Shown piece by piece: positions 14,400 to 36,651 of a stretch of DNA of 40,782 nucleotides (within the stretch, counting starts at the first letter, position 1; every line of letters starts with the position of its first letter). Source of the stretch: Candidatus Woesearchaeota archaeon (GTDB taxonomy: Archaea; Nanobdellota; Nanobdellia; SCGC-AAA011-G17; GW2011-AR20); the NCBI GenBank assembly GCA_964359725.1, contig CAYHTT010000003.1:1-40782 (forward strand), in the 5' to 3' direction. Both the position numbers and the translations under genes were made by a program. The notes beneath the pieces were generated by a model. That model worked only from the letters and a program-made list of their open reading frames with translations. It was not told the DNA's origin and did no database searches.

Positions 14400-15797
14400 T
14401 TATTTTTTATATTTTTGTATTAACCCAATTAATTTATTGCCACTTATTTTACCTTTATATCTACTCATTAAAATTCCCATTATAGCATTTACACTTAAAT
14501 CCTTTTTTTCTTGAATAATTTTTTTAATTTCTTTTTCAATCTGAGAATAATCTACTACCTTATATTTTTCTAGATTAATTTTTTTACCTTCTCTTAAATC
14601 ATTTAATATTTCATTAATAACATCTTTTGTTATCTTGCCAGAATTTAATGCATTTAAAACAAATTCTAAATTTTCTTTTTTCTCTTTATTATAATTTATT
14701 AATGTACTAGCTAATAAACCCTTACTAATATTTTTATATTTACTAGCATAATAATTAAAATCAATATTTTGTTTGATTAACTGACTACCAGACACATAAC
14801 TTAAGTTAAATTCATTTTGTAATTCTTTAATTTTTTCTGGAATTAATTTTGGTAAGATAATATCTTTAGCTAAACTTTGTGTTTTTATAGCTAAAATATC
14901 CGTGTCTGGATAAAGTCGTGCTGCTCCGGGTAATGGTCTTAAGAAACTTGTTGTACCATCGTCATTAGCCTTTCTTACTTCTTCTTCAACTTTTTTGCCT
15001 TGTTTTATAATGTTAAGTTGTCTTTGAATTTCATATTCAATAACTTTAGGCATAATTCTTATATCTTGAAACCCTTTTATCTCAACTCTTGCACCATTTT
15101 TAATACTTAAGTTTACATCTTGCCTTATTGTTCCAATACCTCGTAAAACATTTTCAAAACTTCTTAAAATCATCCCAATTTTTTCTGCAATTTCTTTAGC
15201 ATGTTCTGGAGTTTTTATATCTGGTTCTGTTCTTATTTCTAAGAGGGGTATTCCCTGACGCGACAAAGAATAATATACCTTATTTCCTTCTATTTTTTCA
15301 ATTTTACAAGCATCTTCTTCTAAACATAAACTTGTAATTCTAACTTTTCCTAAAGAAGTTTCAATAAAAGAATCTTTAGTTTCAGTTCCAATTAAAGCTG
15401 TTCTCTGAAAAGAACTACAAGCACTTCCATCAGCTATAACTTTTCTCATTACTATAATTTCATCTGAAATTCTAAGTTTGAATAATTTTGCAACAGATAA
15501 AGCAGTAATTAAAGCATCTTGATTAATTTCATAGGGAGGCTGATCATCGCAATCTACAAGGCAATACTCATTTTTATAACCATGATAAAAAAATTCACGA
15601 TCTCTTGATTGTTCAAATTCTGCTGCAACATCAACATAACCTAGCTCCCCTGCAGAAGCCTTTAATTTTCTTAAGAACTCTAATTCTAAATCTTTCTCTT
15701 TAAACTGAGTTGAGCATTTACAAAAAAGTTTTTGGCTAGAAATTTGCTGGTGAATTTCCAAACCTATTCTAAGTCCTAATTCTTTATAGTCTAACAT
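14400..15797 (-). CDS. gatE: Glu-tRNA(Gln) amidotransferase subunit E, short form
   Basis: DYKELGLRIGLEIHQQ, KLFCKC, MRK...DGS..S.FQRT, LEEDAC, GIPLLEI, RGIGTIRQDVNLSI, RPLPGAARLYP; 465 aa. Confidence 0.95.
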   Translation of the reverse strand: MLDYKELGLRIGLEIHQQISSQKLFCKCSTQFKEKDLELEFLRKLKASAGELGYVDVAAEFEQSRDREFFYHGYKNEYCLVDCDDQPPYEINQDALITALSVAKLFKLRISDEIIVMRKVIADGSACSSFQRTALIGTETKDSFIETSLGKVRITSLCLEEDACKIEKIEGNKVYYSLSRQGIPLLEIRTEPDIKTPEHAKEIAEKIGMILRSFENVLRGIGTIRQDVNLSIKNGARVEIKGFQDIRIMPKVIEYEIQRQLNIIKQGKKVEEEVRKANDDGTTSFLRPLPGAARLYPDTDILAIKTQSLAKDIILPKLIPEKIKELQNEFNLSYVSGSQLIKQNIDFNYYASKYKNISKGLLASTLINYNKEKKENLEFVLNALNSGKITKDVINEILNDLREGKKINLEKYKVVDYSQIEKEIKKIIQEKKDLSVNAIMGILMSRYKGKISGNKLIGLIQKYKK

Positions 15798-16974
15798 TTT
15801 GTTTAATGGGTAAATTATTGGTGTTTAAATTTTGAGGATGTCTAATTGCTCTAGCAAAAAATATCCCTAAAACTCCATTAGGATAAATGGGTTCTCCTTT
15901 TCCAGTAAAAGTTGGTTTAGTTTTAAAGATTTTATTTATTTTAAAAATAATTTTATTGTAATCTAAATTTAAAAGTTTAGAATAGTTTCTTGAGATTATC
16001 AATCCATATGGTATCGGTCTAACAATTCTAGAAATTTCATAAAGATTTTTGTTAAATTTATATGGAAGAATAACACTATACTTAGAACCTTTACCCATTT
16101 TTAATTTGAAATTAGACAAATTCTTATAAATACTTTTTTTGTTTAATCCTTTAGATTCTAAAAGCTTATACAATCTACTAAATTTTACATTCTTCCTATT
16201 CCTATAAAATCCATTTATAATCTTATATTTTTTAATAAGATCTAAACCATTTTCTACGTAAGCATTAGTATTGAATAGAAATTTTTTATAGTCTAAATAA
16301 TTATTTTTATATAGTTTATTAAAATTTATTATATTCCTTTTATAAAATTCTTTTTTTACATGTTTTTCTATCCAAAGTTTTTTCCTTGGATGTGTAAAAC
16401 TCAATTTTTTATAATAATCCCTAATATAAAAAGAGGGTATTGTAACCCTAAAATAAGTGCGTTTGTTAATTATCCTCTCAGAATATTTAAACCCAATATT
16501 CTCTTTTAATAAAAAAGTCTTAAAAGAATTTATTAATTTTTTAGCGCAAACATCTAGTACAACCTTTCTAGAGTTTCTAGCAACCATTCCATCACAATCC
16601 ATAAATCCCAACCAAAAATATTTTTCTAAACTGGTTTTTTTATAAATTTTTGGTAGATCGACAATTAATGCCTTTTTTCCAGGATTTATATTAAAACACT
16701 TTATTAAAATATGACCAAATTCTTTACTTTTGAAGTACAAAACATACAAATTTCCTCTTTTTCTCATATGTAAATTAATTCTAAAATAGTTTGATAAAAT
16801 TCGTTTAATATTATTTAAATGTTTTAATGAGTATTTTAATTCATTTTTTACAGAAGTACCATCATAAAATTCGAAGGCATAATATTTTTTTTCTTTTAGA
16901 TAAAAACATCCATCTGCCATAAACACTCCTATTAAATATGCAAAATCTGGCTCTTTTATTTGCAGTTCTTTCAT
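15784..16974 (-). CDS. Free-standing double-motif LAGLIDADG endonuclease-like protein
   Basis: Two LAGLIDADG helices, AYLIGVFMADG and FWLGFMDCDG; very Lys-rich. ATG at 16974 forms an ATGA overlap with the upstream stop (ORF track start 16986 is the alternative). Confidence 0.82.
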   Translation of the reverse strand: MKELQIKEPDFAYLIGVFMADGCFYLKEKKYYAFEFYDGTSVKNELKYSLKHLNNIKRILSNYFRINLHMRKRGNLYVLYFKSKEFGHILIKCFNINPGKKALIVDLPKIYKKTSLEKYFWLGFMDCDGMVARNSRKVVLDVCAKKLINSFKTFLLKENIGFKYSERIINKRTYFRVTIPSFYIRDYYKKLSFTHPRKKLWIEKHVKKEFYKRNIINFNKLYKNNYLDYKKFLFNTNAYVENGLDLIKKYKIINGFYRNRKNVKFSRLYKLLESKGLNKKSIYKNLSNFKLKMGKGSKYSVILPYKFNKNLYEISRIVRPIPYGLIISRNYSKLLNLDYNKIIFKINKIFKTKPTFTGKGEPIYPNGVLGIFFARAIRHPQNLNTNNLPIKQNVRL

Positions 16975-17693
16975 CTTCGGTTCCATATTGAGTGAAAATA
17001 TTCTTTAAATTTATTTGCAATATCCTTTGAAGTTATTAAAGTTGCTAATGGTTTATCTTTGAATGAAGTAAATAAAACTTTGTCTTCATGTATATCTATG
17101 TTGCCCGGGATTGGAAAATCTACGTATTTCATTTTGAATGATGTTTTTTTAATAAATTTTGATTTTTTATAATGTATATTAGCTATTCCTTTAACTCTGT
17201 GATTTTTAAATTTATTGTATAAACGCATCCAAAATTTGTCTATTTCTTCATAATCTTGTTCTGCAATATAAAAAAATAAATATTCCTCTTTATTATCACC
17301 TTCCATCAGTCTTTCATAAGCTGTCTTTACTCCATTAAAACCAATAAAGACTTCTGCTTCTTGCTTTTCCTGTAGTTTTTGCAATCTCTCTAAATCTGGG
17401 ATTAATTTTTTCAATGATAATTTTTCTTTTTCTATTTTTTGTTCTTTTTTGTCTAAATATTCATTTAATGGTGAAAAACTAGTAACTTGGAAATATTTTG
17501 TCTTTTCTTTAATTATGAACGAGATTAAGCCTTTTTCAAGTAATCTATTTAAAATTTCATAAATGTTTGAGTAAGCAACTTTAGCTTCTTTAACTATTGG
17601 CCCCACTGTTGAACTGCCTAATTTAGTTAAAGCTAAGTAAACTTTTGCTTCTCCATCTGTTAATCCTAAATTCATTAATAATTCTTTTTCCAT
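16971..17693 (-). CDS. TrmB-family transcriptional regulator
   Basis: LGLTDGEAKVYLAL..LG, IYEILNRLLEKGLI wHTH; G..GVK linker; C-terminal effector domain ending F..YF.SIW. Confidence 0.9.
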   Translation of the reverse strand: MEKELLMNLGLTDGEAKVYLALTKLGSSTVGPIVKEAKVAYSNIYEILNRLLEKGLISFIIKEKTKYFQVTSFSPLNEYLDKKEQKIEKEKLSLKKLIPDLERLQKLQEKQEAEVFIGFNGVKTAYERLMEGDNKEEYLFFYIAEQDYEEIDKFWMRLYNKFKNHRVKGIANIHYKKSKFIKKTSFKMKYVDFPIPGNIDIHEDKVLFTSFKDKPLATLITSKDIANKFKEYFHSIWNRR

Positions 17694-22136: not shown

Positions 22137-23075
22137 TTAAGCTTTAACTTGCTTATCTTTATTCTTTATTAACTCAACAATTTTACAAGTTTGGCATATT
22201 TTTTGAGAACATGGTTCTCCACAAATCTCACAATTATTTATAGGCATATAATTTTTATAATGCTCGCGTAATAATGGTAACATCTCTATAAAACTAGTAA
22301 TTATACTATGTTTTGTTCCAGGATACTTAGCTTCAAAATTATTTAACATTTCTTGAACCTCACCCCTATAACTGTCTGTGCTATGTGGACATTCAACAAA
22401 CTCATTAGTCAAACCTTTTAAAAAAGCGTAAGTAGCAACTTCTTTTTGTGTCATAAAGTATAATGGTTTAATTCTTCTAATAAAACGTTTATCTTTCACA
22501 ACTCCTGTTATAGGCCCTAGTCTTGCGCTTGTTTCAATATTCCTTCTAAAATAATTCATCATTATTGTTTGTGCTTCATCATCTAAATTATGGCCTGTAG
22601 CCAATTTAGTAAAACCAAGTTCTTTACTTTTCTTATTTAACAAATATCTTCTAAATGGACCGCACATAGAACAAGCTTTCATTTTTGTTTTTTTAAGCAT
22701 ATTATCTAAAGTATCACCAAATTCATCTTTATAAGAAAAAATATGCAATTTAATATCATGCTCTTGGCAATATTTTTCGGCATCTTGTAATGTTTTGTCT
22801 CTATATCCAGAAATGCCCTCATCTATTGCTATAGCTTCTATCTCAAATTTTTTTGTTTTCTCCTTTAACATATTTAAAATATTTAAAACAGTTAAAGAAT
22901 CTTTACCACCAGAAACAGCTACTCCAATTCTATCTTCTTTTTCAATTAACTTATAATTATGAACAGCATTAAGAACTTTTCTTTCAAAATATCTAATAAA
23001 ATGTTTTTTACAAAGTTGAATATTAGTATTTGTAAGTTTAATTACAGGTTTCTCAGCACAATTTTTACATGGCAT
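22137..23075 (-). CDS. ttuA: tRNA 2-thiolation protein, TtuA/Ncs6 family
   Basis: N-terminal CxxC...CxxH, PP-loop SGGKDS, CSMC, ATGHNLDDEAQT, IKPL, ECP, C-terminal CxxC...CxxC. Confidence 0.92.
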   Translation of the reverse strand: MPCKNCAEKPVIKLTNTNIQLCKKHFIRYFERKVLNAVHNYKLIEKEDRIGVAVSGGKDSLTVLNILNMLKEKTKKFEIEAIAIDEGISGYRDKTLQDAEKYCQEHDIKLHIFSYKDEFGDTLDNMLKKTKMKACSMCGPFRRYLLNKKSKELGFTKLATGHNLDDEAQTIMMNYFRRNIETSARLGPITGVVKDKRFIRRIKPLYFMTQKEVATYAFLKGLTNEFVECPHSTDSYRGEVQEMLNNFEAKYPGTKHSIITSFIEMLPLLREHYKNYMPINNCEICGEPCSQKICQTCKIVELIKNKDKQVKA

Positions 23076-23109
23076 AATTATAATAATTTAGCTAGGATTA
23101 TAAAATTTT

Positions 23110-23307
23110 CTAACCACCAGAAATAACACTTAAAAACTTTAAATCATCATTATCATTTAGATTTTCCTCAGCCAATATTAGTTCATTATTTTTAATTATT
23201 AAAACAGTTTCTGGATTGATATTAAGTATTTGCATAACTTGTTCAGCGTTTCTAGCTTTAACATTTTTTACAAATTTATTCTCACGCTCAATAAATACAT
23301 TTACCAT
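23110..23307 (-). CDS. Ubiquitin-like sulfur carrier (ThiS/MoaD/SAMP/TtuB-like)
   Basis: 65 aa ending in VISGG-stop; directly upstream of ttuA. Confidence 0.9.
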   Translation of the reverse strand: MVNVFIERENKFVKNVKARNAEQVMQILNINPETVLIIKNNELILAEENLNDNDDLKFLSVISGG

Positions 23308-23359
23308 AATTTAAAGTGTAGAAAGATATTTAAATAGCTTACCATTTTTCCCTTGTGTA

Positions 23360-24007
23360 ATGAAAGCAATAGTAATTAAAAAAGGGGCTAATGAAGATAA
23401 AGCAATAATAAAAGCCTCTAAGATACTAAAAAAAACTTTAAAAAAAGGGGACATAATTCTCACAAGCCCCAGGCTTAATAATATTAAATTAAAAGTTATG
23501 CATCTCCCTTCTTTTATAATAAGCAAATTATCTCGTGGCATTACTCATTCTTGTTTATATTTAGGGAAAGGTAATATATTAGAAATAGGTCATACATTAT
23601 ATGATTCAAAAATTAAAAAAATTAAAATAGAGGATTTATTGAAAAATAAAATAGGAATGTTTAGAGGTATTACAGTTTATGTTGTACAACCTAAATATTA
23701 TAAACCAAAACATAGAAACTTGGTATTAAAAGTCGCAATAAATAATTTCTTGAACAAAAGTAAGAGTTTAGCATTTTCTTATAGAAATATGTTTTATCTC
23801 TGGATGAAGTTGATATTTAAGAAAAATAAGTTTAGTAAAAAAGAAAAATTACACTTCAAAAAAAATTGGAATTGTAGTGAACTAACCGCTTATATATTAA
23901 AAAAAGCTGGTATAAAAATTGGAACAAGAAAAACAATATTCTTTTTACCAAGTACATTTATATTCAGTAAACATTTTAAAGCAAAGAAAAAAATAATTCT
24001 TAAATAA
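23360..24007 (+). CDS. Permuted papain-like (NlpC/P60, YiiX/YebB-type) amidase/peptidase
   Basis: LKKGDIILT, THSCLYLG (His before Cys) and late NCSEL..Y..KKAGI give the circularly permuted order. Confidence 0.85.
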   Translation: MKAIVIKKGANEDKAIIKASKILKKTLKKGDIILTSPRLNNIKLKVMHLPSFIISKLSRGITHSCLYLGKGNILEIGHTLYDSKIKKIKIEDLLKNKIGMFRGITVYVVQPKYYKPKHRNLVLKVAINNFLNKSKSLAFSYRNMFYLWMKLIFKKNKFSKKEKLHFKKNWNCSELTAYILKKAGIKIGTRKTIFFLPSTFIFSKHFKAKKKIILK

Positions 24008-24010
24008 AAA

Positions 24011-24955
24011 TTATTTTCCCACATTATAAATCTTATTAGCTATATTCATAATTTTATTTTCATCTTTTAATGTTTTAAAAATAATTTCACCTTGATTATT
24101 AATTATAACTTGCTCATCATCAACCTCAATTAATAAAGTTATATTAGCATCTCTTAATACACCAAAATTATCCTTTATTTTTTCTAGATTTAATTTCTTA
24201 TTGGTTTTAACTGTAAATGTATTACCTGTTTGGCATAAAGTTAAATCAAATTTTTTCTTAATTATTTTACCTTGACAAATCTCGCAATTATTATTTTTAT
24301 TAACTTTAATTTTCTCAATATTATTATTTGTAATGTTTACCCTAATAAAATTTTCTTCTGCTTCTTTGTTTAATAATATTTTAATAGCTTCATTTACTTG
24401 TAAGCTAGCTACTAAAGATGCAACTGTATTAAGTATGCCAATATCCTCGCATCTATCATAATCCTTTATATTATAATAAATGCAATTAAAACAAGCCCTT
24501 CCTGGCAGAACATTAAAAACTACACCTTTATCTTGGATTGCTGCTGCATGTACCCAAGGAATTCTATTATAACAATATTGATTAATTAAAAATCTTGTTT
24601 CTAAATTATCAGTACAATCTAGTATTAAATCAGAATTAATCAAATTAATATTATCCTCCGTTAATTTAACATTATAAGATTTTATATCAATATTGGAATT
24701 TACTCTAACCAAATAATCTCTTGCAACTTCCGCTTTATTTTTATTAAGATCTTGCTCAGTAAAAATAGTTTGACGTTGTAGATTACTAAGCTCAACTTTA
24801 TCATGATCAATTAAAATTAAATTAACTCCTGCTCTTGCAAGTAAATTAGCTGCATTACTTCCAAGAGCACCTAATCCAACTATTGAAATGGTTTTCTTGC
24901 CAAGCAATTCTTGATTTTCTTTTCCTAGAAAAGCTTCTTGTCTGGAGTAACGCAT
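24011..24955 (-). CDS. ThiF/MoeB/UbaA-family E1-like adenylyltransferase
   Basis: RYSRQ, GLGALGS, D.DKVELSNLQRQ, DCTDN..TR, CFNC, C.D.GIL, CEIC; extra C-terminal domain. Confidence 0.93.
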   Translation of the reverse strand: MRYSRQEAFLGKENQELLGKKTISIVGLGALGSNAANLLARAGVNLILIDHDKVELSNLQRQTIFTEQDLNKNKAEVARDYLVRVNSNIDIKSYNVKLTEDNINLINSDLILDCTDNLETRFLINQYCYNRIPWVHAAAIQDKGVVFNVLPGRACFNCIYYNIKDYDRCEDIGILNTVASLVASLQVNEAIKILLNKEAEENFIRVNITNNNIEKIKVNKNNNCEICQGKIIKKKFDLTLCQTGNTFTVKTNKKLNLEKIKDNFGVLRDANITLLIEVDDEQVIINNQGEIIFKTLKDENKIMNIANKIYNVGK

Positions 24956-25006
24956 ATTTAACTTAAGTAAAAGAAGATTTTTAAATCTATTTTCCTTAAT
25001 AATATT

Positions 25007-26884
25007 ATGCTAGAACTTATCCAAGATATTCGTGGCTATAATGAGAATGCGGACTTTGATTTAATTACTAAAGCATATGAATTTGCAAAAAAAGCTCATT
25101 CTGGACAAGTACGTGAATCAGGAGAAGAGCACATTTCTCATTTAGTTGGTGCAGCTAGAATATTAATAAAATTAAAGGTTGATGATAAAACTATTGCTGC
25201 ATGCTTATTACATGATATATTAGAAGATACAAATATTACTAAACAGCAATTAGAAAAAGAATTTGGAGAGGAGATTGCTTATTTAGTAGGGGGAGTAACT
25301 AAAATAGATAAATTAAGAATTTCTGACTTTAAAATCAGGCAGGCCGAAAGTATTAGGAAAATGTTATTTGCAACAGCTCAAGATATTAGAGTAATAATAA
25401 TTAAATTAGCTGACAGAGTAGATAATATGTTAAGCTTGCAATATTTTCAAGAGGAAAAACAAAAAAGAATTGCTCAGGAAACTCTAGATGTTTATGCACC
25501 AATTGCTTATAGACTTGGATTGTTTAATATTAAATGGCAGCTCGAAGATTTAGCATTTCGTTATTTAGAGTCTAAAATTTATCAAGAATTGAAAGAAAAA
25601 GTAGCTCAAAAAAGAGAACAACGTGAACTCTATCTAGAAAAAATAAAATCAATTTTAGAAGAACAATTAACTAAGTATAATATTAAAGCTGAAATCAGAA
25701 GCAGGCCAAAAAGTTTTTTTAGCATTTACAGAAAAATGCAGAAAAAAGAAGTTGATTTTAATAAAATATATGATTTACTTGGAATTAGAATAATTACAAA
25801 TGATGTTAAAGAATGTTATGAAGTTCTTGGAATAATTCATAATTTATGGAAACCTATACCAAGAGAATTCGATGATTATATAGCTAATCCTAAACCAAAT
25901 ATGTATCAAAGTTTACATACAGTTGTTGTTGGACCAGAAAAACAATTAATTGAATTTCAAATAAGAACTTACGAAATGGATAAAATCTCAGAAGAAGGTA
26001 TAGCTGCTCATTGGCAATATAAAGATATTAAAGGCGATTTTAAATTTGATAAACAACTTTCTTGGCTTCGAGAAGTTATTGGATTAAAGGATAAATCAAG
26101 TCAAGAATTTTTTGAAACTTTAAAATTAGATTTATTTAGCTATAATATTTATGTATTTACACCCAATGGTGATATCATTGGATTACCAAAAGACTCAACT
26201 CCAGTAGACTTTGCTTATGCTATTCACACAGATGTTGGAAGCAGGTGCAGTGGAGCAAGAGTAAATGGTAAGTATGTAAATTTAAAACATGAACTTGAGA
26301 ATGGTGATATTATAGAGATAATAACTTCAAAAAATCATATTCCTAGTAGAGACTGGCTTAAGTTTGTAAAATCTCAAAAAGCTAAAGAAAGAATAGTACA
26401 TATGCTTAAAATTCATCAAAATATTCCCGCTAAAAAATTTACTGAATTAGAAGAGATTAAACAAAGTTTAATTCAAGCTGATATTAATTTTAATGAATCT
26501 AAATTAGCTGAATGTTGTAATCCTTTACCAGGTGATATTATAGTTGGGTATGCTACTAAAAATAATAAAATTAGCATACATAAGCAAAATTGCGATAAAC
26601 TAAGTAATTTAAAATTAAAAAAAGTTAATGTGAAATGGAAAGAAATTCCTGAGTCAAGTATTAATTTAAAGATTTTAGCTTTAGATAGAGTTGGATTATT
26701 CGCGGATATTTTATATAATGTAGCTCAAATTGGTATTAATGTTGATAAAGCTAATGTTGATACAATAAATAAAGATTTGGCAGAATGTAATTTAAAACTC
26801 GAGCTAAATAAATTAGAGGATGTAAGGAAAATTGTTGAAAGGATTAAGAAGATGGCTGATGTTAAAAAAATAAGTATTAGTTAA
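25007..26884 (+). CDS. rel: Long RelA/SpoT homologue, (p)ppGpp synthetase/hydrolase (HD-SYNTH-TGS-ZFD-ACT)
   Basis: HD: AHSGQVRESGE, LLHDILEDT, GVTK, IKLADR. Synthetase: RPKS..SIYRKM, YDLLGIR, EFDDYIANPKPNMYQSLHT, EFQIRT, AAHWQYK. TGS: VFTPNGD..TPVDFAYAIHT..VNG. ZFD: CCNPLPGD...IH...C. ACT: DRVGLFADI. Confidence 0.97.
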   Translation: MLELIQDIRGYNENADFDLITKAYEFAKKAHSGQVRESGEEHISHLVGAARILIKLKVDDKTIAACLLHDILEDTNITKQQLEKEFGEEIAYLVGGVTKIDKLRISDFKIRQAESIRKMLFATAQDIRVIIIKLADRVDNMLSLQYFQEEKQKRIAQETLDVYAPIAYRLGLFNIKWQLEDLAFRYLESKIYQELKEKVAQKREQRELYLEKIKSILEEQLTKYNIKAEIRSRPKSFFSIYRKMQKKEVDFNKIYDLLGIRIITNDVKECYEVLGIIHNLWKPIPREFDDYIANPKPNMYQSLHTVVVGPEKQLIEFQIRTYEMDKISEEGIAAHWQYKDIKGDFKFDKQLSWLREVIGLKDKSSQEFFETLKLDLFSYNIYVFTPNGDIIGLPKDSTPVDFAYAIHTDVGSRCSGARVNGKYVNLKHELENGDIIEIITSKNHIPSRDWLKFVKSQKAKERIVHMLKIHQNIPAKKFTELEEIKQSLIQADINFNESKLAECCNPLPGDIIVGYATKNNKISIHKQNCDKLSNLKLKKVNVKWKEIPESSINLKILALDRVGLFADILYNVAQIGINVDKANVDTINKDLAECNLKLELNKLEDVRKIVERIKKMADVKKISIS

Positions 26885-27333
26885 ACAAAGAATAAGCCTG
26901 TGACAATATTAGCTAGCCTATAAGAAAATGATTTATTAACATTAAATTTTACATCTAATTCTCTTTCTAATATATTAATTAAAATATTACCCTTAAATGT
27001 TCTAGCCTGAATTTGAAATTTTGTAATTACTTTAGCAAGATCGTCATCTTCTTGAACACTTAATAAAGTTCTAAAATCATCTGCTGTTCCAAAAAATACT
27101 ATATCAGCTTTCCCAGAATCTTTAAGCTCTAATTTACCCTGCTTATTTAATATTAAAATGAAATTTTCATTGGTGTCAAGAGTTTTAATCCCAATTCTTA
27201 TTGGCAAAGTAAAAGAAAGTTTTCCAACCTCAACTCCCGAATAATTATTTACATATTCTGTTGTATCTTCTATTAATGCTGCATTTACAAGAGTTAATGA
27301 AAGTAAAAATATTATCAATAATTGTAATTTCAT
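26881..27333 (-). CDS. Secreted/surface hypothetical protein
   Basis: Signal peptide MKLQLLIIFLLSLTLVNA; the ADIVFFGTADDFRTLL segment weakly recalls an SCP2-like fold. Confidence 0.65.
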   Translation of the reverse strand: MKLQLLIIFLLSLTLVNAALIEDTTEYVNNYSGVEVGKLSFTLPIRIGIKTLDTNENFILILNKQGKLELKDSGKADIVFFGTADDFRTLLSVQEDDDLAKVITKFQIQARTFKGNILINILERELDVKFNVNKSFSYRLANIVTGLFFV

Positions 27334-27337
27334 TTTT

Positions 27338-27850
27338 TTATTTTAGTTGTTTTATTTTTTTTATAAGCTTTTTTGTTGCTTCTTCTACAGTTAAACCTTT
27401 TGTATTTAATATTATATTGTAAAGTTTTTTATTCCTATAATCAATACCATACTCATGTTTATAATGTTTTAATTCTTCTCGTTCCCTAGCTAAAGTTTCA
27501 TGTAAAGCTTTTTTATAACTTATTTTATCACGTCTAGCAATTCTATTAACTCGAGCTTTTAAAGGTGCGTATAAATAAATTCTAATATGAGCATTTTTAA
27601 TTAAATAAGCTCCTAATCTAGAATCAATAATACAATTTTTATTTTTCTTAGCAATTCTCTTTTGTTCTTCATCTAAGTAATTTACTAATTTCTCTTGTTT
27701 AGTTAAATCTAAAACAGAAATTTTTTTCTTTTTTGCAATACTTCTAAAAATATCACCCATTGAATAATGTTTTAAATGTAAATGTTTAGCAAGTTCTTTT
27801 GCAACAGAAGTTTTTCCAGAACCAGGTAAACCTGTAATTGTAATTATCAT
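27338..27850 (-). CDS. cmk: Cytidylate kinase, archaeal type
   Basis: IITITGLPGSGKTSVAK P-loop, SMGDIFR..A, DSRLGA, R..RIA.RD, YGID. Confidence 0.9.
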   Translation of the reverse strand: MIITITGLPGSGKTSVAKELAKHLHLKHYSMGDIFRSIAKKKKISVLDLTKQEKLVNYLDEEQKRIAKKNKNCIIDSRLGAYLIKNAHIRIYLYAPLKARVNRIARRDKISYKKALHETLAREREELKHYKHEYGIDYRNKKLYNIILNTKGLTVEEATKKLIKKIKQLK

Positions 27851-27875: not shown

Positions 27876-29453
27876 TTAAATTATTCTTTTTCGTTCTTCA
27901 TTATTTAATAACCAAACTTTTTCACCACAAAAATGATAACCCTCAGGACAATTTCTACGAGAATCAGCTTTGTAAGCAATATCACAAGGGGCACCAAACC
28001 ATTTACCAATTAATGGATGTACTTTTGTAATCTGGTCTACTTCATCTGATGTGGCTTGCCAAATTTCTTTTTGTGCATTATAACAAAGTCTTTCAACAAA
28101 TTTTTTTCTTAAATGAAGCAAGCTTCCAGATTCTATAAATCTTATAGGATAAGCATTGGGAAGCAAATAAGCAACATATTGTGAATTAGCATTATTTTCC
28201 AATAAATAATTTATATTATTAAAAATAAGTTTCATGGTAGCTTTATATGTACTTAAAGCTTTTTCATCATCTTTTATCAAATCAGGAATAATATAATCTG
28301 GTTCTCCGAAATAATGCTGCATTATAAATGGTCTACTACCAAGAACTCCGCGATGTCTTTGATCCTGAGAATCGGCACTATGACTTAATTTTTTCTTAAA
28401 TGTATAATAAACATTATTTAAAGCCCTAGTTATCTTACTCATCATTGTAATATTTAAAGGCCCTAACAAATAAGGGTCTTTAGCCGGATTTAATAGTAAA
28501 TAAACAGCTTCTTCATCACTTAATTCTTGTTCAGTTAATCCAAATTCAGTTCTTAATGAATCACCTAAAATACGATAAGGATTATTTGGATGGTCAATTA
28601 ATTTTGATATATGATCTTTTAAAGATTCATCAAATTCTTCAACAAATTTTCTATTTCTATGAAAATCTATTTTATCCCCTTTATATTTTTCTATTAATCT
28701 ATGTTCTAAAGTATCCTCAAATTTTATTGAATTCTTAACCATTAAAATATTTGGGTCGAATTTTTTGGCTTCATTAATCATTTCATTAACAACAATTCTT
28801 GCTTCTTCTGATACATCACACATCTCTGCGCAATAATAATAACGTTGTAATGTTAAAGTATTAATCGTATGATATAAGTGAGATTTAGTTGCAATAGGTA
28901 AAACATATCTTGTTATTTCTTGGGTTTTTCTGTTTACTTCTCTATCACCTTCTTCTGTACCTTTATCTTTTGGGAATAATCTATAATATTTTTGTTCTAC
29001 AGTTGGTTTAAGCATTTCAAATAAACCATTATCAACAAGTAATTGAAATTCTAAAGTTTCTTTATACACCAAATTTAAATCATTGTTTCGAAAATCTGGG
29101 ATTACAAAATCATCTAATGTCATTTTTCTATATTTTCTATCAAATCTTTGGCTATCTTGATTAGAATTATGGAACGGTTGATCATGAAATAATGACCATA
29201 TTAATAATCTTGAAACACCGCTTATACCAAAAACAAGGTGTGCGTGGCCAAAGGGAGTGTGGTGTTCTGCGTTATATAGTTGTATTCTTAATCTATCCCA
29301 GTGTTCTCTTGTCTCACCTTTTTTAATACCAACATCTTTTGGTTTAATAAGTTCTGGGGAATAACAACTTCTAGCTGATGCAACAGCTAAATCGCTTGGA
29401 TTTTCTATTATATCAATTAGTTCTATATTTGGTTTACTTGATAAAAATACCAT
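27876..29453 (-). CDS. Long, two-domain ThyX/Thy1-like FAD-dependent thymidylate synthase
   Basis: First module AEHHTPFGH..LVFGISGVSR...SQRF...RYVLP; second module SHSADSQDQRHR...YLLPNA...RLC..AQ.EI. Confidence 0.8.
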   Translation of the reverse strand: MVFLSSKPNIELIDIIENPSDLAVASARSCYSPELIKPKDVGIKKGETREHWDRLRIQLYNAEHHTPFGHAHLVFGISGVSRLLIWSLFHDQPFHNSNQDSQRFDRKYRKMTLDDFVIPDFRNNDLNLVYKETLEFQLLVDNGLFEMLKPTVEQKYYRLFPKDKGTEEGDREVNRKTQEITRYVLPIATKSHLYHTINTLTLQRYYYCAEMCDVSEEARIVVNEMINEAKKFDPNILMVKNSIKFEDTLEHRLIEKYKGDKIDFHRNRKFVEEFDESLKDHISKLIDHPNNPYRILGDSLRTEFGLTEQELSDEEAVYLLLNPAKDPYLLGPLNITMMSKITRALNNVYYTFKKKLSHSADSQDQRHRGVLGSRPFIMQHYFGEPDYIIPDLIKDDEKALSTYKATMKLIFNNINYLLENNANSQYVAYLLPNAYPIRFIESGSLLHLRKKFVERLCYNAQKEIWQATSDEVDQITKVHPLIGKWFGAPCDIAYKADSRRNCPEGYHFCGEKVWLLNNEERKRII

Positions 29454-34538: not shown

Positions 34539-34632
34539 CGCCAGAGCGAGGATTCGAACCTCGAAGTCCTTTCGGACGGCAGTTTTCTTTATGAAGTTCG
34601 AGACTGCTGCAATACCGTTATGCGACCCTGGC
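34539..34632 (-). tRNA. tRNA-Ser(CGA) with a 12-nt intron at position 37/38; CCA not encoded
   Basis: Reverse complement: GCCAGGG TC GCATAACGGTATTGC A GCAGT CT CGA A [CTTCATAAAGAA] A ACTGC CGTCCGAAAGGACTT CGAGG TTCGAAT CCTCG CTCTGGC G. All stems pair, with a long variable arm and G discriminator; intron at 34585-34596. Confidence 0.93.
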
Positions 34633-36195: not shown

Positions 36196-36651
36196 ATGGA
36201 CATAGAACCTATAAATCTTGAAGAAGTATTCAAGTTGCACCAAAATGGTTTTAAAGTAATTTTAGGTGTTAGAACGCAACATACCACTTCTTATAACGGA
36301 AGTCCAACTGGAAATCCAGAACATTGGGATGATCCATGTATACTAGTTAATTTAGATGAAGAAGCGACCCTTATTGAAATTATCGAAGAAGATCGTACTC
36401 GATATGAATCATTAGTTGAAGAAGGCTTAGCAGAACACGATGGTTTTGGGAATAAAAATCCAATAATAGGTAAATATAGATTTATTGTTGATTTTGGAGG
36501 CATTTGGAGCGAATATTCTTGGGAGAGTTTATATGAAGATATGTATAATTTTTACTTTTTGAAAAAAAGCCTCCCTATGCCAGAACGAATAGAAGGATTT
36601 TTCTATCTTAAAAAATGTGCAGAGGTTTATTTTGCACAAAAACAGGGCTAG
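36196..36651 (+). CDS. Hypothetical acidic protein
   Basis: 151-aa ORF with AT-rich TATA-like sequence upstream; no motif recognised. Confidence 0.6.
   Translation: MDIEPINLEEVFKLHQNGFKVILGVRTQHTTSYNGSPTGNPEHWDDPCILVNLDEEATLIEIIEEDRTRYESLVEEGLAEHDGFGNKNPIIGKYRFIVDFGGIWSEYSWESLYEDMYNFYFLKKSLPMPERIEGFFYLKKCAEVYFAQKQG

What the first reader, a model, noticed from the sequence alone, without database searches (positions are those of the whole stretch)
25007..26884. Complete long RelA/SpoT homologue in an archaeal genome: candidate archaeal (p)ppGpp stringent-response system
Seen: all five long-RSH domains, with HD (HDILED) and synthetase motifs (RPKS, YD..GIR, YQSLHT, EFQIRT, AAHWQYK) present. 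The gene lies between an E1-like gene and archaeal cmk, on a contig with gatDE, aTrm56 and P0/P1, and its composition looks like its neighbours'. Established: long ribosome-associated RSHs are a hallmark of bacteria and plastids, and characterised archaea are generally regarded as lacking (p)ppGpp stringent control. Inference: this lineage may sense uncharged tRNA on an archaeal ribosome via TGS/ZFD/ACT and make an alarmone with unknown archaeal targets (translation GTPases, purine enzymes, primase), perhaps for host-free dormancy.
Basis: partly seen in the sequence, partly recalled or inferred. Interest (0 to 1): 0.9.

Follow-up and report, generated by a model that had tools for sequence, protein, structure and literature searches.

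The report
Archaeal RelA/SpoT alarmone enzyme, shortened form
A small groundwater archaeon carries an intact copy of the enzyme bacteria use to make and destroy the starvation signal (p)ppGpp; the gene is real and widespread in its lineage, its presence there is already in print, and it has a shortened sensor region and has never been tested at the bench.

Summary
Window 25007-26884 (+) is an intact 625-aa long RelA/SpoT homologue (TIGR00691 688.6 bits, cut-off 499.2) on a clearly archaeal contig. It is not an assembly artefact. Its composition matches its neighbours. Both gene junctions recur in other genomes and in assemblies from two studies.

The gene is a lineage feature. 136 of 301 sampled genomes of the phylum carry it, and all sampled archaeal copies form one clade.

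- A 2021 DPANN comparative-genomics paper (PMC8407392) already reports RelA/SpoT in these lineages and predicts a bacterial origin.
- The domain set is not complete. The whole archaeal clade lacks about 80 residues of the Helical domain, which in B. subtilis Rel is needed with TGS for stable binding of deacylated tRNA.

I did not find the following in print:
- The clade-wide Helical-domain deletion.
- Near-complete invariance of synthetase, tRNA-CCA-histidine and zinc-finger residues in 130 sequences (one substitution at one site).
- Whole lineages with a degenerate hydrolase motif and no separate RSH-type hydrolase.
- Uncoupling of the EXDD/RXKD motif from hydrolase status.

Alarmone synthesis is likely. 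Activation by an archaeal ribosome is plausible but untested. Verdict: a new variant of a known kind, of moderate to high interest.

The parts
25007..26884 (+). Long RelA/SpoT homologue, 625 aa, of the archaeal short-linker form
   Evidence: ORF; Pfam domains; TIGR00691 688.6 bits; PDB best match B. subtilis Rel 6yxa, E 8.5e-152
25073..25522 (+). HD (hydrolase) domain, residues 23-172, with an intact HDXXED motif (H69 D70 E73 D74 = HDILED)
   Evidence: PF13328 E 6.1e-47; residue table. The motif's meaning is taken from PMC2666561
25700..26026 (+). SYNTH (synthetase) domain, residues 232-340. D256 aligns with B. subtilis Rel D264. An EFDD (EXDD-type) motif sits at residues 287-290
   Evidence: PF04607 E 4.1e-43; alignment to 6yxa; synthetase sites invariant or nearly so in 130 archaeal-type sequences; motif counts
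26147..26326 (+). TGS domain, residues 381-440. H407 aligns with B. subtilis Rel H420, the histidine that reads the tRNA CCA end
   Evidence: PF02824 E 4.3e-24; alignment; H407 130/130; role of H420 from PMC7797070
26327..26470 (+). Remnant of the Helical domain, residues 441-488: a short turn, one helix (457-471) and a disordered stretch (472-488). About 80 residues are missing relative to bacterial Rel
   Evidence: Alignment A1; linker lengths 56-72 in 57 archaeal against 119-158 in 94 bacterial copies; AlphaFold secondary structure and pLDDT below 50 at 477-485; PF19296 absent
26471..26659 (+). Zinc-finger / RIS domain, about residues 489-551, with ligands C503 C504 H525 C529
   Evidence: PF28438 in the precomputed domains of P0001; ligands 130/130; beta-strands in the model
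26660..26872 (+). ACT / RRM domain, residues 552-622
   Evidence: PF13291 E 2e-09; beta-alpha-beta-beta-alpha-beta pattern in the model
24011..24955 (-). ThiF/MoeB/E1-like adenylyltransferase, transcribed divergently from the RSH. It is context, not shown to be functionally linked
   Evidence: PF00899 E 3.3e-59; adjacency to the RSH kept in 12 of 36 archaeal loci
27338..27850 (-). Archaeal-type (d)CMP kinase; a marker of the downstream junction
   Evidence: TIGR02173 140.1 bits against a cut-off of 102.1; adjacency kept in 6 of 36 loci, all of the same family

Best explanation
The gene encodes a native, long-resident archaeal long RSH ('archaeal Rel').

Shown:
- It is intact and matches its neighbours in composition.
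- It is present in about 45% of sampled genomes of its phylum.
- All sampled archaeal copies form one clade, set apart from bacterial Rel by a single branch and by a deletion of about 80 residues in the Helical domain.
- In this protein both active sites carry the residues that define a bifunctional enzyme. The tRNA-CCA histidine, the four zinc ligands and the ACT/RRM fold are conserved across the clade.

Inferred:
- It synthesises (p)ppGpp (perhaps also pGpp, given its EXDD motif) from ATP and GTP/GDP, and hydrolyses it.
- It rests in a compact, SpoT-like, hydrolase-favouring state.
- It switches to synthesis when the TGS domain meets an uncharged tRNA 3' end while ZFD/RRM dock on the archaeal ribosome's A-site-finger region. 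The shortened TGS-ZFD spacer would mean a docking geometry different from bacterial RelA/Rel.
- The gene most likely entered an early ancestor of this archaeal class once, from a bacterium. It was then inherited vertically, with losses in some families.
For: Real and archaeal:
- GatD, GatE, archaeal L1/P0/P1, SecDF, cmk and aTrm56 lie on the same contig.
- GC and GC3 equal those of the neighbours.
- Full-length copies (E <= 1e-140) occur in 16 of 41 genomes including the window's own, plus one contig-edge fragment. G006, a one-contig genome, is among them.
- 136 of 301 genomes carry it phylum-wide, 135 of 300 among high-quality genomes. Presence is family-specific: f4 14/14 and f32 34/36, against f24 0/24 and f19 0/9.
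- The junctions recur: E1-RSH in 12 of 36 loci, RSH-cmk in 6 of 36.
- Contigs from two studies bridge both junctions with 0 differences.

One clade:
- 57 archaeal against 94 bacterial rows are split by one branch, support 99 (FastTree).
- 30 against 43 rows, SH-aLRT 99, under LG+C20.
- 130 short-linker against 123 long-linker rows are split by one branch, support 99.

Function:
- R233, K235, K243, D256, R261, Y300, E316 and Q318 are each 130/130; H304 is 129/130.
- TGS H407 is 130/130, and C503/C504/H525/C529 are 130/130.
- D256 and H407 align with B. subtilis D264 and H420, whose substitutions impair synthesis and CCA recognition respectively (PMC7797070).
- The model has pLDDT 81.7 and pTM 0.75. 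Its best global match is full-length SpoT 7qpr, TMq 0.58-0.60.
- Bacterial origin agrees with PMC8407392, and the best pairwise hits are Bacillota Rel.
Against: - No enzyme assay, no alarmone measurement and no RNA evidence exist for any member. [quoted passage not shown]
- The Helical domain is largely gone. In B. subtilis Rel, TGS alone gives no stable tRNA complex; TGS plus Helical is needed (PMC7797070). Bacterial-style tRNA locking may therefore not work.
- The predicted fold is the compact, off-ribosome form.
- Typical Firmicute-type targets (Gmk, PRTases) were not found in this genome.
- The hydrolase motif is not exact HDxxED in 24 of 130 archaeal-type copies. Ten of ten such genomes lack a second HD_4 protein. 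That is hard to square with a strongly active synthetase.
- The donor is unresolved. The free tree puts the clade outside the Terrabacteria-like group (support 97), but holding it together with Bacillota is not rejected (p-AU 0.359).
- CPR bacteria, Spirochaetota, several other bacterial phyla and all other archaeal phyla were not sampled.
- The nearest Atlas clusters, 606-638 aa, are labelled mostly 'Bacteria' on the few members that have a record.
Confidence: 0.6

Rival explanations
1. The enzyme is a real alarmone synthetase/hydrolase but is ribosome-independent. Having lost the Helical domain, it is regulated like SpoT, by small-molecule binding to ACT, by protein partners, or simply by substrate levels. 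It does not sense uncharged tRNA on the ribosome.
For: - The Helical-domain deletion is clade-wide.
- TGS alone does not stably bind tRNA in B. subtilis Rel (PMC7797070).
- The model resembles compact full-length SpoT and not ribosome-bound RelA, whose rmsd is about 37 A.
Against: - The CCA-stacking histidine and all four zinc-finger ligands are invariant in 130 of 130 sequences. These are the parts that contact the tRNA 3' end and the A-site finger in bacteria (PMC5829649; PMC7797070). Such constraint is hard to explain if they are idle.
- AlphaFold would be expected to return the closed form in any case.
Confidence: 0.3
2. The gene is ancestral: vertical descent from the common ancestor of Archaea and Bacteria and not a transfer. 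In the tree the archaeal clade sits outside every sampled bacterial phylum, between a Gracilicutes-like and a Terrabacteria-like half.
For: - Archaea and bacteria are split by one branch, and the archaeal clade is not nested in any sampled phylum.
- Divergence within the archaeal clade is comparable to that among the bacterial phyla in the same trees.
Against: - It would require loss in nearly all other archaea. Long RSHs were not found in archaea in the 2011 census (PMC3153485).
- Grouping with Bacillota is not rejected (p-AU 0.359).
- DPANN sequences evolve fast, the tree is unrooted, and sampling is incomplete.
- PMC8407392 predicts a bacterial origin.
Confidence: 0.06
3. Artefact: a bacterial gene brought onto an archaeal contig by mis-assembly or binning contamination, or a decaying recent transfer.
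For: The family is overwhelmingly bacterial, and the best pairwise database hits outside the clade are Bacillota.
Against: - The same gene sits in the same neighbourhood in independent genomes, including a one-contig genome.
- Contigs from two studies bridge both junctions without a difference.
- GC3 is identical to that of the neighbours.
- The frame is intact and the catalytic residues are conserved.
- 136 of 301 genomes of the phylum carry it.
Confidence: 0.02

Closest known systems
Bifunctional Rel of Bacillota (B. subtilis Rel; PDB 6yxa, 6htq)
   Same: - HD, SYNTH, TGS, ZFD and RRM/ACT occur in the same order.
- It is the best PDB sequence match: E 8.5e-152 over residues 4-471, with 48% identity in the Foldseek alignment.
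- HDXXED is intact, and the equivalents of D264 and H420 are conserved.
   Different: - About 80 residues of the Helical domain are missing. By the boundaries in PMC7797070 the B. subtilis Helical domain is 470-583; the window protein keeps only the first helix.
- It carries EFDD in place of RFKD.
- Its host has an archaeal ribosome.
Monofunctional RelA of Gamma/Betaproteobacteria (E. coli RelA; PDB 5iqr, 5kpv)
   Same: - EXDD-type motif in the synthetase domain (PMC2666561).
- Same CTD sensor elements: the TGS histidine and ZFD/RRM, which bind the CCA end and the A-site finger (PMC5829649).
- Some archaeal sister lineages (f32, f18, f46) have a degenerate hydrolase motif, as RelA does.
   Different: - The window protein keeps an intact hydrolase motif.
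- The NF008124 RelA equivalog scores 438 bits against a cut-off of 728.
- It lacks the Helical domain.
Full-length SpoT (PDB 7qpr)
   Same: It is the best global structural match to the predicted model (TMq 0.58-0.60), that is, the compact arrangement in which the CTD packs on the catalytic core.
   Different: - 24-25% identity in the structural alignment.
- The NF008303 SpoT equivalog scores 521 bits against a cut-off of 947.
- SpoT has the full Helical domain.
RelA/SpoT genes reported in DPANN genomes (PMC8407392, mSystems 2021)
   Same: This is the same gene family in the same lineages. That paper gives occurrence percentages and predicts a bacterial origin (passages read).
   Different: In the passages I read, the paper gives one sentence of annotation, with no domain analysis, catalytic-residue analysis or biochemistry. 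Its tree (Fig. S34, external file) could not be seen.
Small RSHs previously listed in archaea (divRel SAS in Methanosarcina acetivorans; SAHs in Methanococcoides, Natronomonas)
   Same: RSH superfamily members in archaea, attributed to transfer from bacteria (PMC3153485).
   Different: Those are single-domain and sporadic. This one is a multi-domain long RSH, widespread and forming one clade within a whole archaeal class.

Membership tests
Long RSH (RelA/SpoT family, TIGR00691) | Whole-protein score above the curated cut-off | tested here: met
   688.6 bits against 499.2
Long RSH (RelA/SpoT family, TIGR00691) | N-terminal HD (hydrolase) plus SYNTH (synthetase) domains | tested here: met
   PF13328 at 23-172 and PF04607 at 232-340; fold matches to Rel NTD structures, TMt up to 0.84 for 6s2u
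Long RSH (RelA/SpoT family, TIGR00691) | TGS domain with the CCA-reading histidine | tested here: met
   PF02824 at 381-440; H407 aligns with B. subtilis H420; 130/130 conserved
Long RSH (RelA/SpoT family, TIGR00691) | Helical (alpha-helical) domain between TGS and ZFD | tested here: not met
   PF19296 absent; spacing of 62 residues against 119-158 in 94 bacterial Rel; one helix only in the model
Long RSH (RelA/SpoT family, TIGR00691) | ZFD/RIS zinc finger with conserved Cys/His ligands | tested here: met
   PF28438 in the precomputed domains; C503 C504 H525 C529 invariant in 130/130
Long RSH (RelA/SpoT family, TIGR00691) | C-terminal ACT/RRM domain | tested here: met
   PF13291 at 552-622; beta-alpha-beta-beta-alpha-beta pattern in the model
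Long RSH (RelA/SpoT family, TIGR00691) | (p)ppGpp synthesis and/or hydrolysis activity | not testable with these tools
   Only residue conservation is available
Bifunctional Rel/SpoT class | Intact HDXXED hydrolase motif (PMC2666561) | tested here: met
   HDILED at residues 69-74. 106 of 130 archaeal-type copies keep the exact H-D-x-x-E-D
Bifunctional Rel/SpoT class | RXKD motif in the synthetase domain (PMC2666561) | tested here: not met
   EFDD at 287-290. In the archaeal clade: EXDD 45, RXKD 38, other 47 of 130. In sampled bacteria: RXKD 111 of 123
Monofunctional RelA class | Degenerate hydrolase motif together with EXDD; RelA equivalog score | tested here: not met
   The hydrolase motif is intact. 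NF008124 scores 438 bits, below its cut-off of 728. EXDD alone is met
Stringent response (ribosome- and deacylated-tRNA-activated alarmone signalling) | Activation by stalled ribosomes carrying uncharged A-site tRNA, and alarmone-responsive targets | not testable with these tools
   The sensor residues are conserved and uL11 is present in the genome, but the Helical domain is missing and no targets were identified

The most novel reading that the evidence does not exclude
This is a distinct, archaea-adapted subfamily of long RSH. It docks on archaeal ribosomes through TGS and ZFD/RRM joined by a drastically shortened spacer. It reads uncharged tRNA and produces (p)ppGpp or pGpp, which would be the first true stringent-type alarmone system in Archaea, present in nearly half of a major DPANN class. 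In some lineages it has become synthetase-only with no RSH-family hydrolase in the genome, which implies a non-canonical route of alarmone removal, or an alarmone that acts on the host.
Probability: 0.35. Interest if true: 0.85.

Novelty: new variant of a known kind. Interest (0 to 1): 0.62.

Why it matters
Textbooks and the RSH literature treat long RSHs and (p)ppGpp control as bacterial and plastid traits. No archaeon has been shown to make the alarmone (PMC3153485; PMC8646023).

Here is a conserved candidate carried by 136 of 301 sampled genomes of a large, mostly uncultivated archaeal phylum. That makes the old question 'do any archaea use (p)ppGpp?' directly testable with one recombinant protein.

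The natural loss of the Helical domain, with the CCA-reading histidine and the zinc finger retained, is also a ready-made experiment. It shows which parts of the sensor are indispensable and how the sensor could fit a non-bacterial ribosome.

The value is tempered in two ways. The gene's presence in DPANN is already published and is annotated in public records. Everything about its activity is inference.

Tried and rejected
Chimeric assembly or contamination: rejected.

Origin inside Bacillota, the best pairwise hits:
- The free trees place the archaeal clade outside the Terrabacteria-like group.
- The AU test does not reject holding it together with Bacillota (p-AU 0.359, delta lnL 6.55).
- So the donor is left open.

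Short-linker forms in bacteria:
- The Atlas lists nearest clusters of 606-638 aa labelled mostly 'Bacteria', on few members with a record.
- In a search with residues 441-625 alone, the top 44 of 120 listed hits all lacked PF19296. The only organism names among them were 'Nanoarchaeota archaeon'.
- Ranks 45-120 all carried PF19296.
- No bacterial short form was found this way, but the Atlas labels remain unexplained.

Expression: no RNA holder was listed for the stretch. Nothing follows from this. Read laying used Logan contigs only, so it shows bridging, not depth or transcripts. A few low-depth pieces with foreign letters between two sides (table 5c) and loose ends were taken as other strains or organisms and not pursued.

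Targets: Gmk (PF00625) and PRTase (PF00156) were not found in the 89%-complete genome. The Gmk model also fails to ring in the four archaeal control genomes, so its absence says little.

Alternative hydrolases in the hydrolase-degenerate lineages: Nudix was found in 4 of 5 f32 genomes and Ppx-GppA in 0 of 5. No specific candidate was identified.

Other archaeal phyla (for example Diapherotrites, reported in PMC8407392) could not be reached.

Literature:
- Searches found no biochemical or structural study of an archaeal long RSH and no description of the Helical-domain deletion. One search was mostly noise, because 'rela' and 'spot' matched as word starts.
Fig. S34 and the tables of PMC8407392, and the supplementary tables of the 2019 RSH census preprint (10.1101/575399, passage read), may list or place these proteins. 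I could not see them.

Rows dropped:
- L001, a duplicate of the window.
- Bacterial open frames under 600 aa (L039 and L070).
- P proteins under 560 aa, and P0001 (identical to the window).
- The 73-row subset was hand-picked to span the groups seen. That was after the first tree had been seen, which weakens the AU test.

Residue roles other than D264 and H420 (B. subtilis numbering) and the HDXXED, EXDD and RXKD motifs are recalled from memory of RelSeq work. They come from no call.
Full report
**Observation**

An ATG-started ORF runs from 25007 to 26884 on the + strand and encodes 625 residues.

- Pfam finds HD_4 (23-172, E 6.1e-47), RelA_SpoT (232-340, E 4.1e-43), TGS (381-440, E 4.3e-24) and ACT_4 (552-622, E 2e-09).
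- NCBIfam TIGR00691 (RelA/SpoT family) scores 688.6 bits against a cut-off of 499.2.
- The SpoT equivalog (521 against 947) and the RelA equivalog (438 against 728) both fall short of their cut-offs.
- The best solved relative is B. subtilis Rel, PDB 6yxa: E 8.5e-152 over residues 4-471.

**The contig is archaeal and the gene belongs to it**

- The window encodes GatD and GatE, archaeal-type AspRS, FtsZ, archaeal SecF/SecD, archaeal L1 and P0, archaeal-type cmk, ThyX, aTrm56 and a P1 stalk protein ending GLSSLFG.
- GC is flat at about 0.23-0.35 across the window.
- The RSH gene has GC 0.276 and GC3 0.142, against 0.270 +/- 0.028 and 0.144 +/- 0.024 for 28 other ORFs.
- The genome is 521 kb in 33 contigs, 89% complete, and holds one RSH.
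- Among 41 genomes (the window's own plus 40 relatives), 16 have a match at E <= 1e-140. One more has a fragment at a contig edge. G006, a genome of one contig, is among the 16.
- tblastn of the window's neighbours against 36 archaeal RSH loci, each with about 1.5 kb of flank, finds the E1-like gene next to the RSH in 12 and cmk in 6.
- Logan contigs from runs of two studies bridge both junctions with no differences. Examples: X4 24810-25634 and 26408-27445; X6 24930-25293 and 25966-27203.

**Distribution**

In an even sample of 301 genomes of the phylum, 136 have a match at E <= 1e-30. That is 135 of 300 high-quality genomes and 107 of 225 genera.

Presence is strongly family-specific:
- Present: f4 14/14, f32 34/36, f18 9/10, f29 7/7, f23 6/6.
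- Not found: f24 0/24, f19 0/9. Rare: f35 1/12.

This is the pattern of an old, vertically inherited gene with lineage losses. The few organism names attached to close database homologues all read 'Nanoarchaeota archaeon'.

**A clade-wide change of architecture**

Alignment with the best bacterial hits shows a clean gap in all archaeal sequences between the TGS domain and the zinc finger.

- From TGS end (residue 440) to the first zinc-finger cysteine (503), 57 archaeal copies have 56-72 residues (median 67). 94 bacterial copies have 119-158 (median 145). The ranges do not overlap.
- Adding 73 short and 29 long database proteins gives the same split.
- The precomputed Pfam strings agree. Archaeal-type proteins carry PF28438 (RelA_RIS, named) but not PF19296. 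Bacterial ones carry both.
- The AlphaFold2 model, built from a 61-sequence archaeal alignment (pLDDT 81.7, pTM 0.75), shows one helix (457-471) and a disordered stretch (472-488, pLDDT below 50 at 477-485) between TGS and the zinc finger.
- By the domain boundaries given for B. subtilis Rel (TGS 374-469, TGS-Helical 374-583; PMC7797070), the archaeal protein keeps roughly the first helix of a Helical domain of about 114 residues.
- So 'all five domains' is right under the older five-domain scheme. 'Complete' is not right under the current six-domain scheme.

**Phylogeny**

The linker columns were removed before tree building.

- FastTree on 151 rows separates all 57 archaeal from all 94 bacterial sequences by one branch, support 99.
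- IQ-TREE with LG+C20+F+G4 (PMSF, quick search) on a 73-row subset gives the same split: SH-aLRT 99, 30 against 43 rows.
- On 253 rows, short linker against long linker (130 against 123) is one change on the tree, support 99. The unnamed short database proteins interleave with the genome-derived archaeal ones.
- Inside the archaeal clade, rows cluster by the genome-taxonomy family codes (f1, f4, f9, f16, f18, f23, f32, f66), consistent with vertical descent.
- The archaeal clade is not nested in any sampled bacterial phylum. It attaches between a group of Latescibacterota, Gemmatimonadota, Nitrospirota, Desulfobacterota, Myxococcota, Pseudomonadota and Acidobacteriota, and a group of Chloroflexota, Actinomycetota, Bacillota and Eremiobacterota (supports 95 and 97; 97 for the second group).
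- The placement is not firm. A tree that holds the archaeal clade together with Bacillota is only 6.55 log-likelihood units worse and is not rejected (p-AU 0.359). The groups for that test were also chosen after the first tree had been seen.
- CPR bacteria, Spirochaetota and other archaeal phyla were not in the sample.
- I therefore accept one origin for the sampled archaeal copies and leave the donor open. A bacterial source remains the most economical reading, given the absence of long RSHs from other archaea (PMC3153485). It is also what PMC8407392 predicts.

**Conservation of functional residues across 130 archaeal-type sequences**

- Synthetase positions R233, K235, K243, D256, R261, Y300, E316 and Q318 are each 130/130. 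H304 is 129/130.
- TGS H407 is 130/130.
- The zinc-finger ligands C503, C504, H525 and C529 are 130/130.
- D256 and H407 align with B. subtilis D264 and H420. In that enzyme D264G compromises synthesis, and H420E abolishes recognition of the tRNA CCA end (PMC7797070).
- The hydrolase motif is less constrained: H69 121/130, D70 115/130, E73 116/130, D74 107/130.
- The window's own protein has the intact motif HDILED.

Hydrolase-degenerate copies:
- They are concentrated in whole lineages: f32 7 of 7 sampled, f18 4 of 4, f46 2 of 2, and one row each from f35 and f31.
- In 10 of 10 such genomes, the only HD_4 match above cut-off is the RSH's own domain. No small alarmone hydrolase was found.
- Nudix genes exist in 4 of 5 f32 genomes and Ppx-GppA in 0 of 5.
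- How those lineages would remove the alarmone is unexplained.

**The EXDD/RXKD motif**

In bacteria, RXKD goes with bifunctional enzymes and EXDD with monofunctional ones. A bifunctional Rel mutated to EXDD made pGpp (PMC2666561, abstract and introduction).

- The window protein combines an intact HDXXED with EFDD.
- Across the archaeal clade the two features are uncoupled: 43 HDxxED + EXDD, 19 HDxxED + RXKD, 19 degenerate + RXKD, 2 degenerate + EXDD.
- In the sampled bacteria, 111 of 123 are HDxxED + RXKD.

**How it most likely works**

Shown: an intact, constrained long RSH with both catalytic centres and three of the four regulatory modules.

Inferred: it makes and degrades (p)ppGpp, and possibly pGpp.

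- The predicted structure is closest to compact full-length SpoT (7qpr, TMq 0.58-0.60). It is far from extended, ribosome-bound RelA (rmsd about 37 A). This fits a resting, hydrolase-favouring state, although a predictor would be expected to give that state anyway.
- In bacteria the TGS domain wraps the CCA end of the A/R tRNA, and ZFD/RRM bind the A-site finger of 23S rRNA (PMC5829649).
- The perfect conservation of exactly those contact elements argues that tRNA and ribosome sensing is kept.
- Against this, TGS alone does not stably bind tRNA in B. subtilis Rel, whereas TGS-Helical does (PMC7797070). The archaeal enzyme must therefore either compensate for the lost Helical domain or be regulated differently.
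- I put alarmone synthesis at roughly 0.75. I put ribosome/tRNA activation at roughly 0.45. I put a SpoT-like, ribosome-independent mode at roughly 0.3.
- uL11 is present in the genome.
- Gmk and PRTase families were not found. Translation GTPases remain the obvious candidates, by inference only.

**Novelty**

- The presence of RelA/SpoT in DPANN archaea, with percentages per phylum and a predicted bacterial origin, is in print (PMC8407392, passages). Public records already name such proteins.
- I found no paper that characterises the protein, describes the Helical-domain deletion, notes the hydrolase-degenerate lineages or tests activity.
- The finding is best filed as a new variant of a known kind: a long RSH subfamily restricted, as far as sampled, to one archaeal class, with a distinctive sensor architecture.

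**Verdict**

The finding is still of moderate to high interest, because one recombinant protein could settle whether any archaeon makes (p)ppGpp.

Noticed in passing
L119-L135 (RSH loci of G084, G079, G121, G162, G231, G191, G206, G257, G270, G222, G245, G065, G187, G050, G144): Whole archaeal lineages (f32, f18, f46, f35, f31) carry a long RSH with a degenerate hydrolase motif but fully conserved synthetase residues. In 10 of 10 genomes tested, no second HD_4 protein is present. Nudix is in 4 of 5 f32 genomes and Ppx-GppA in 0 of 5. How the alarmone would be removed is unexplained.
   Followed up: partly
window 34539-34632 (-): Rfam finds a tRNA spanning 94 nt (39.9 bits, full model 1-71) that ARAGORN does not report. 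It is probably an intron-containing archaeal tRNA.
   Followed up: no
window 27876-29453 (-): The ThyX ORF is 525 aa and matches the Thy1 family in two stretches, about twice the length of the 191-position Thy1 profile. It looks like a tandem-duplicated or fused form.
   Followed up: no
window 14400-16986 (-): A 400-aa ORF with LAGLIDADG domains (15784-16986) overlaps by 14 nt the start of a GatE that is short, at 465 aa against a profile of about 620-630 positions and matched in two stretches.
   Followed up: no
window 36196-36651 (+); G000:C13:6976-7179: The 151-aa ORF just upstream of L1-P0-P1, where I recall archaeal uL11 usually lies, has no Pfam or NCBIfam match. The genome's uL11 match is on another contig.
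   Followed up: partly
whole genome G000: No member of the phosphoribosyltransferase family PF00156 was found in this 89%-complete genome, although all 14 control genomes have it. This fits an organism with almost no nucleotide salvage through PRPP.
   Followed up: no
window 22137-24955 (-): A TtuA-like PP-loop tRNA thiolation enzyme (22137-23075) and an E1-like ThiF/MoeB/UbaA protein (24011-24955) lie close together. The divergent E1-RSH pairing is kept in 12 of 36 archaeal loci, including other families of the order. Whether this is more than retained gene order is unknown.
   Followed up: partly
G170 (C13:2721-4352 and C49:5221-7059): One f32 genome holds two long RSH matches, at 48% and 40% identity to the query. 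This may be a paralogue pair comparable to RelA plus SpoT.
   Followed up: no
window 25007-26884, Atlas neighbours: The nearest ESM Atlas clusters (score 0.97-0.98, 606-638 aa) are labelled 68-86% 'Bacteria' (Pseudomonadota or Spirochaetota commonest) on the few members that have a record. A search with the C-terminal region alone found no bacterial short-linker form. The labels remain unexplained.
   Followed up: partly
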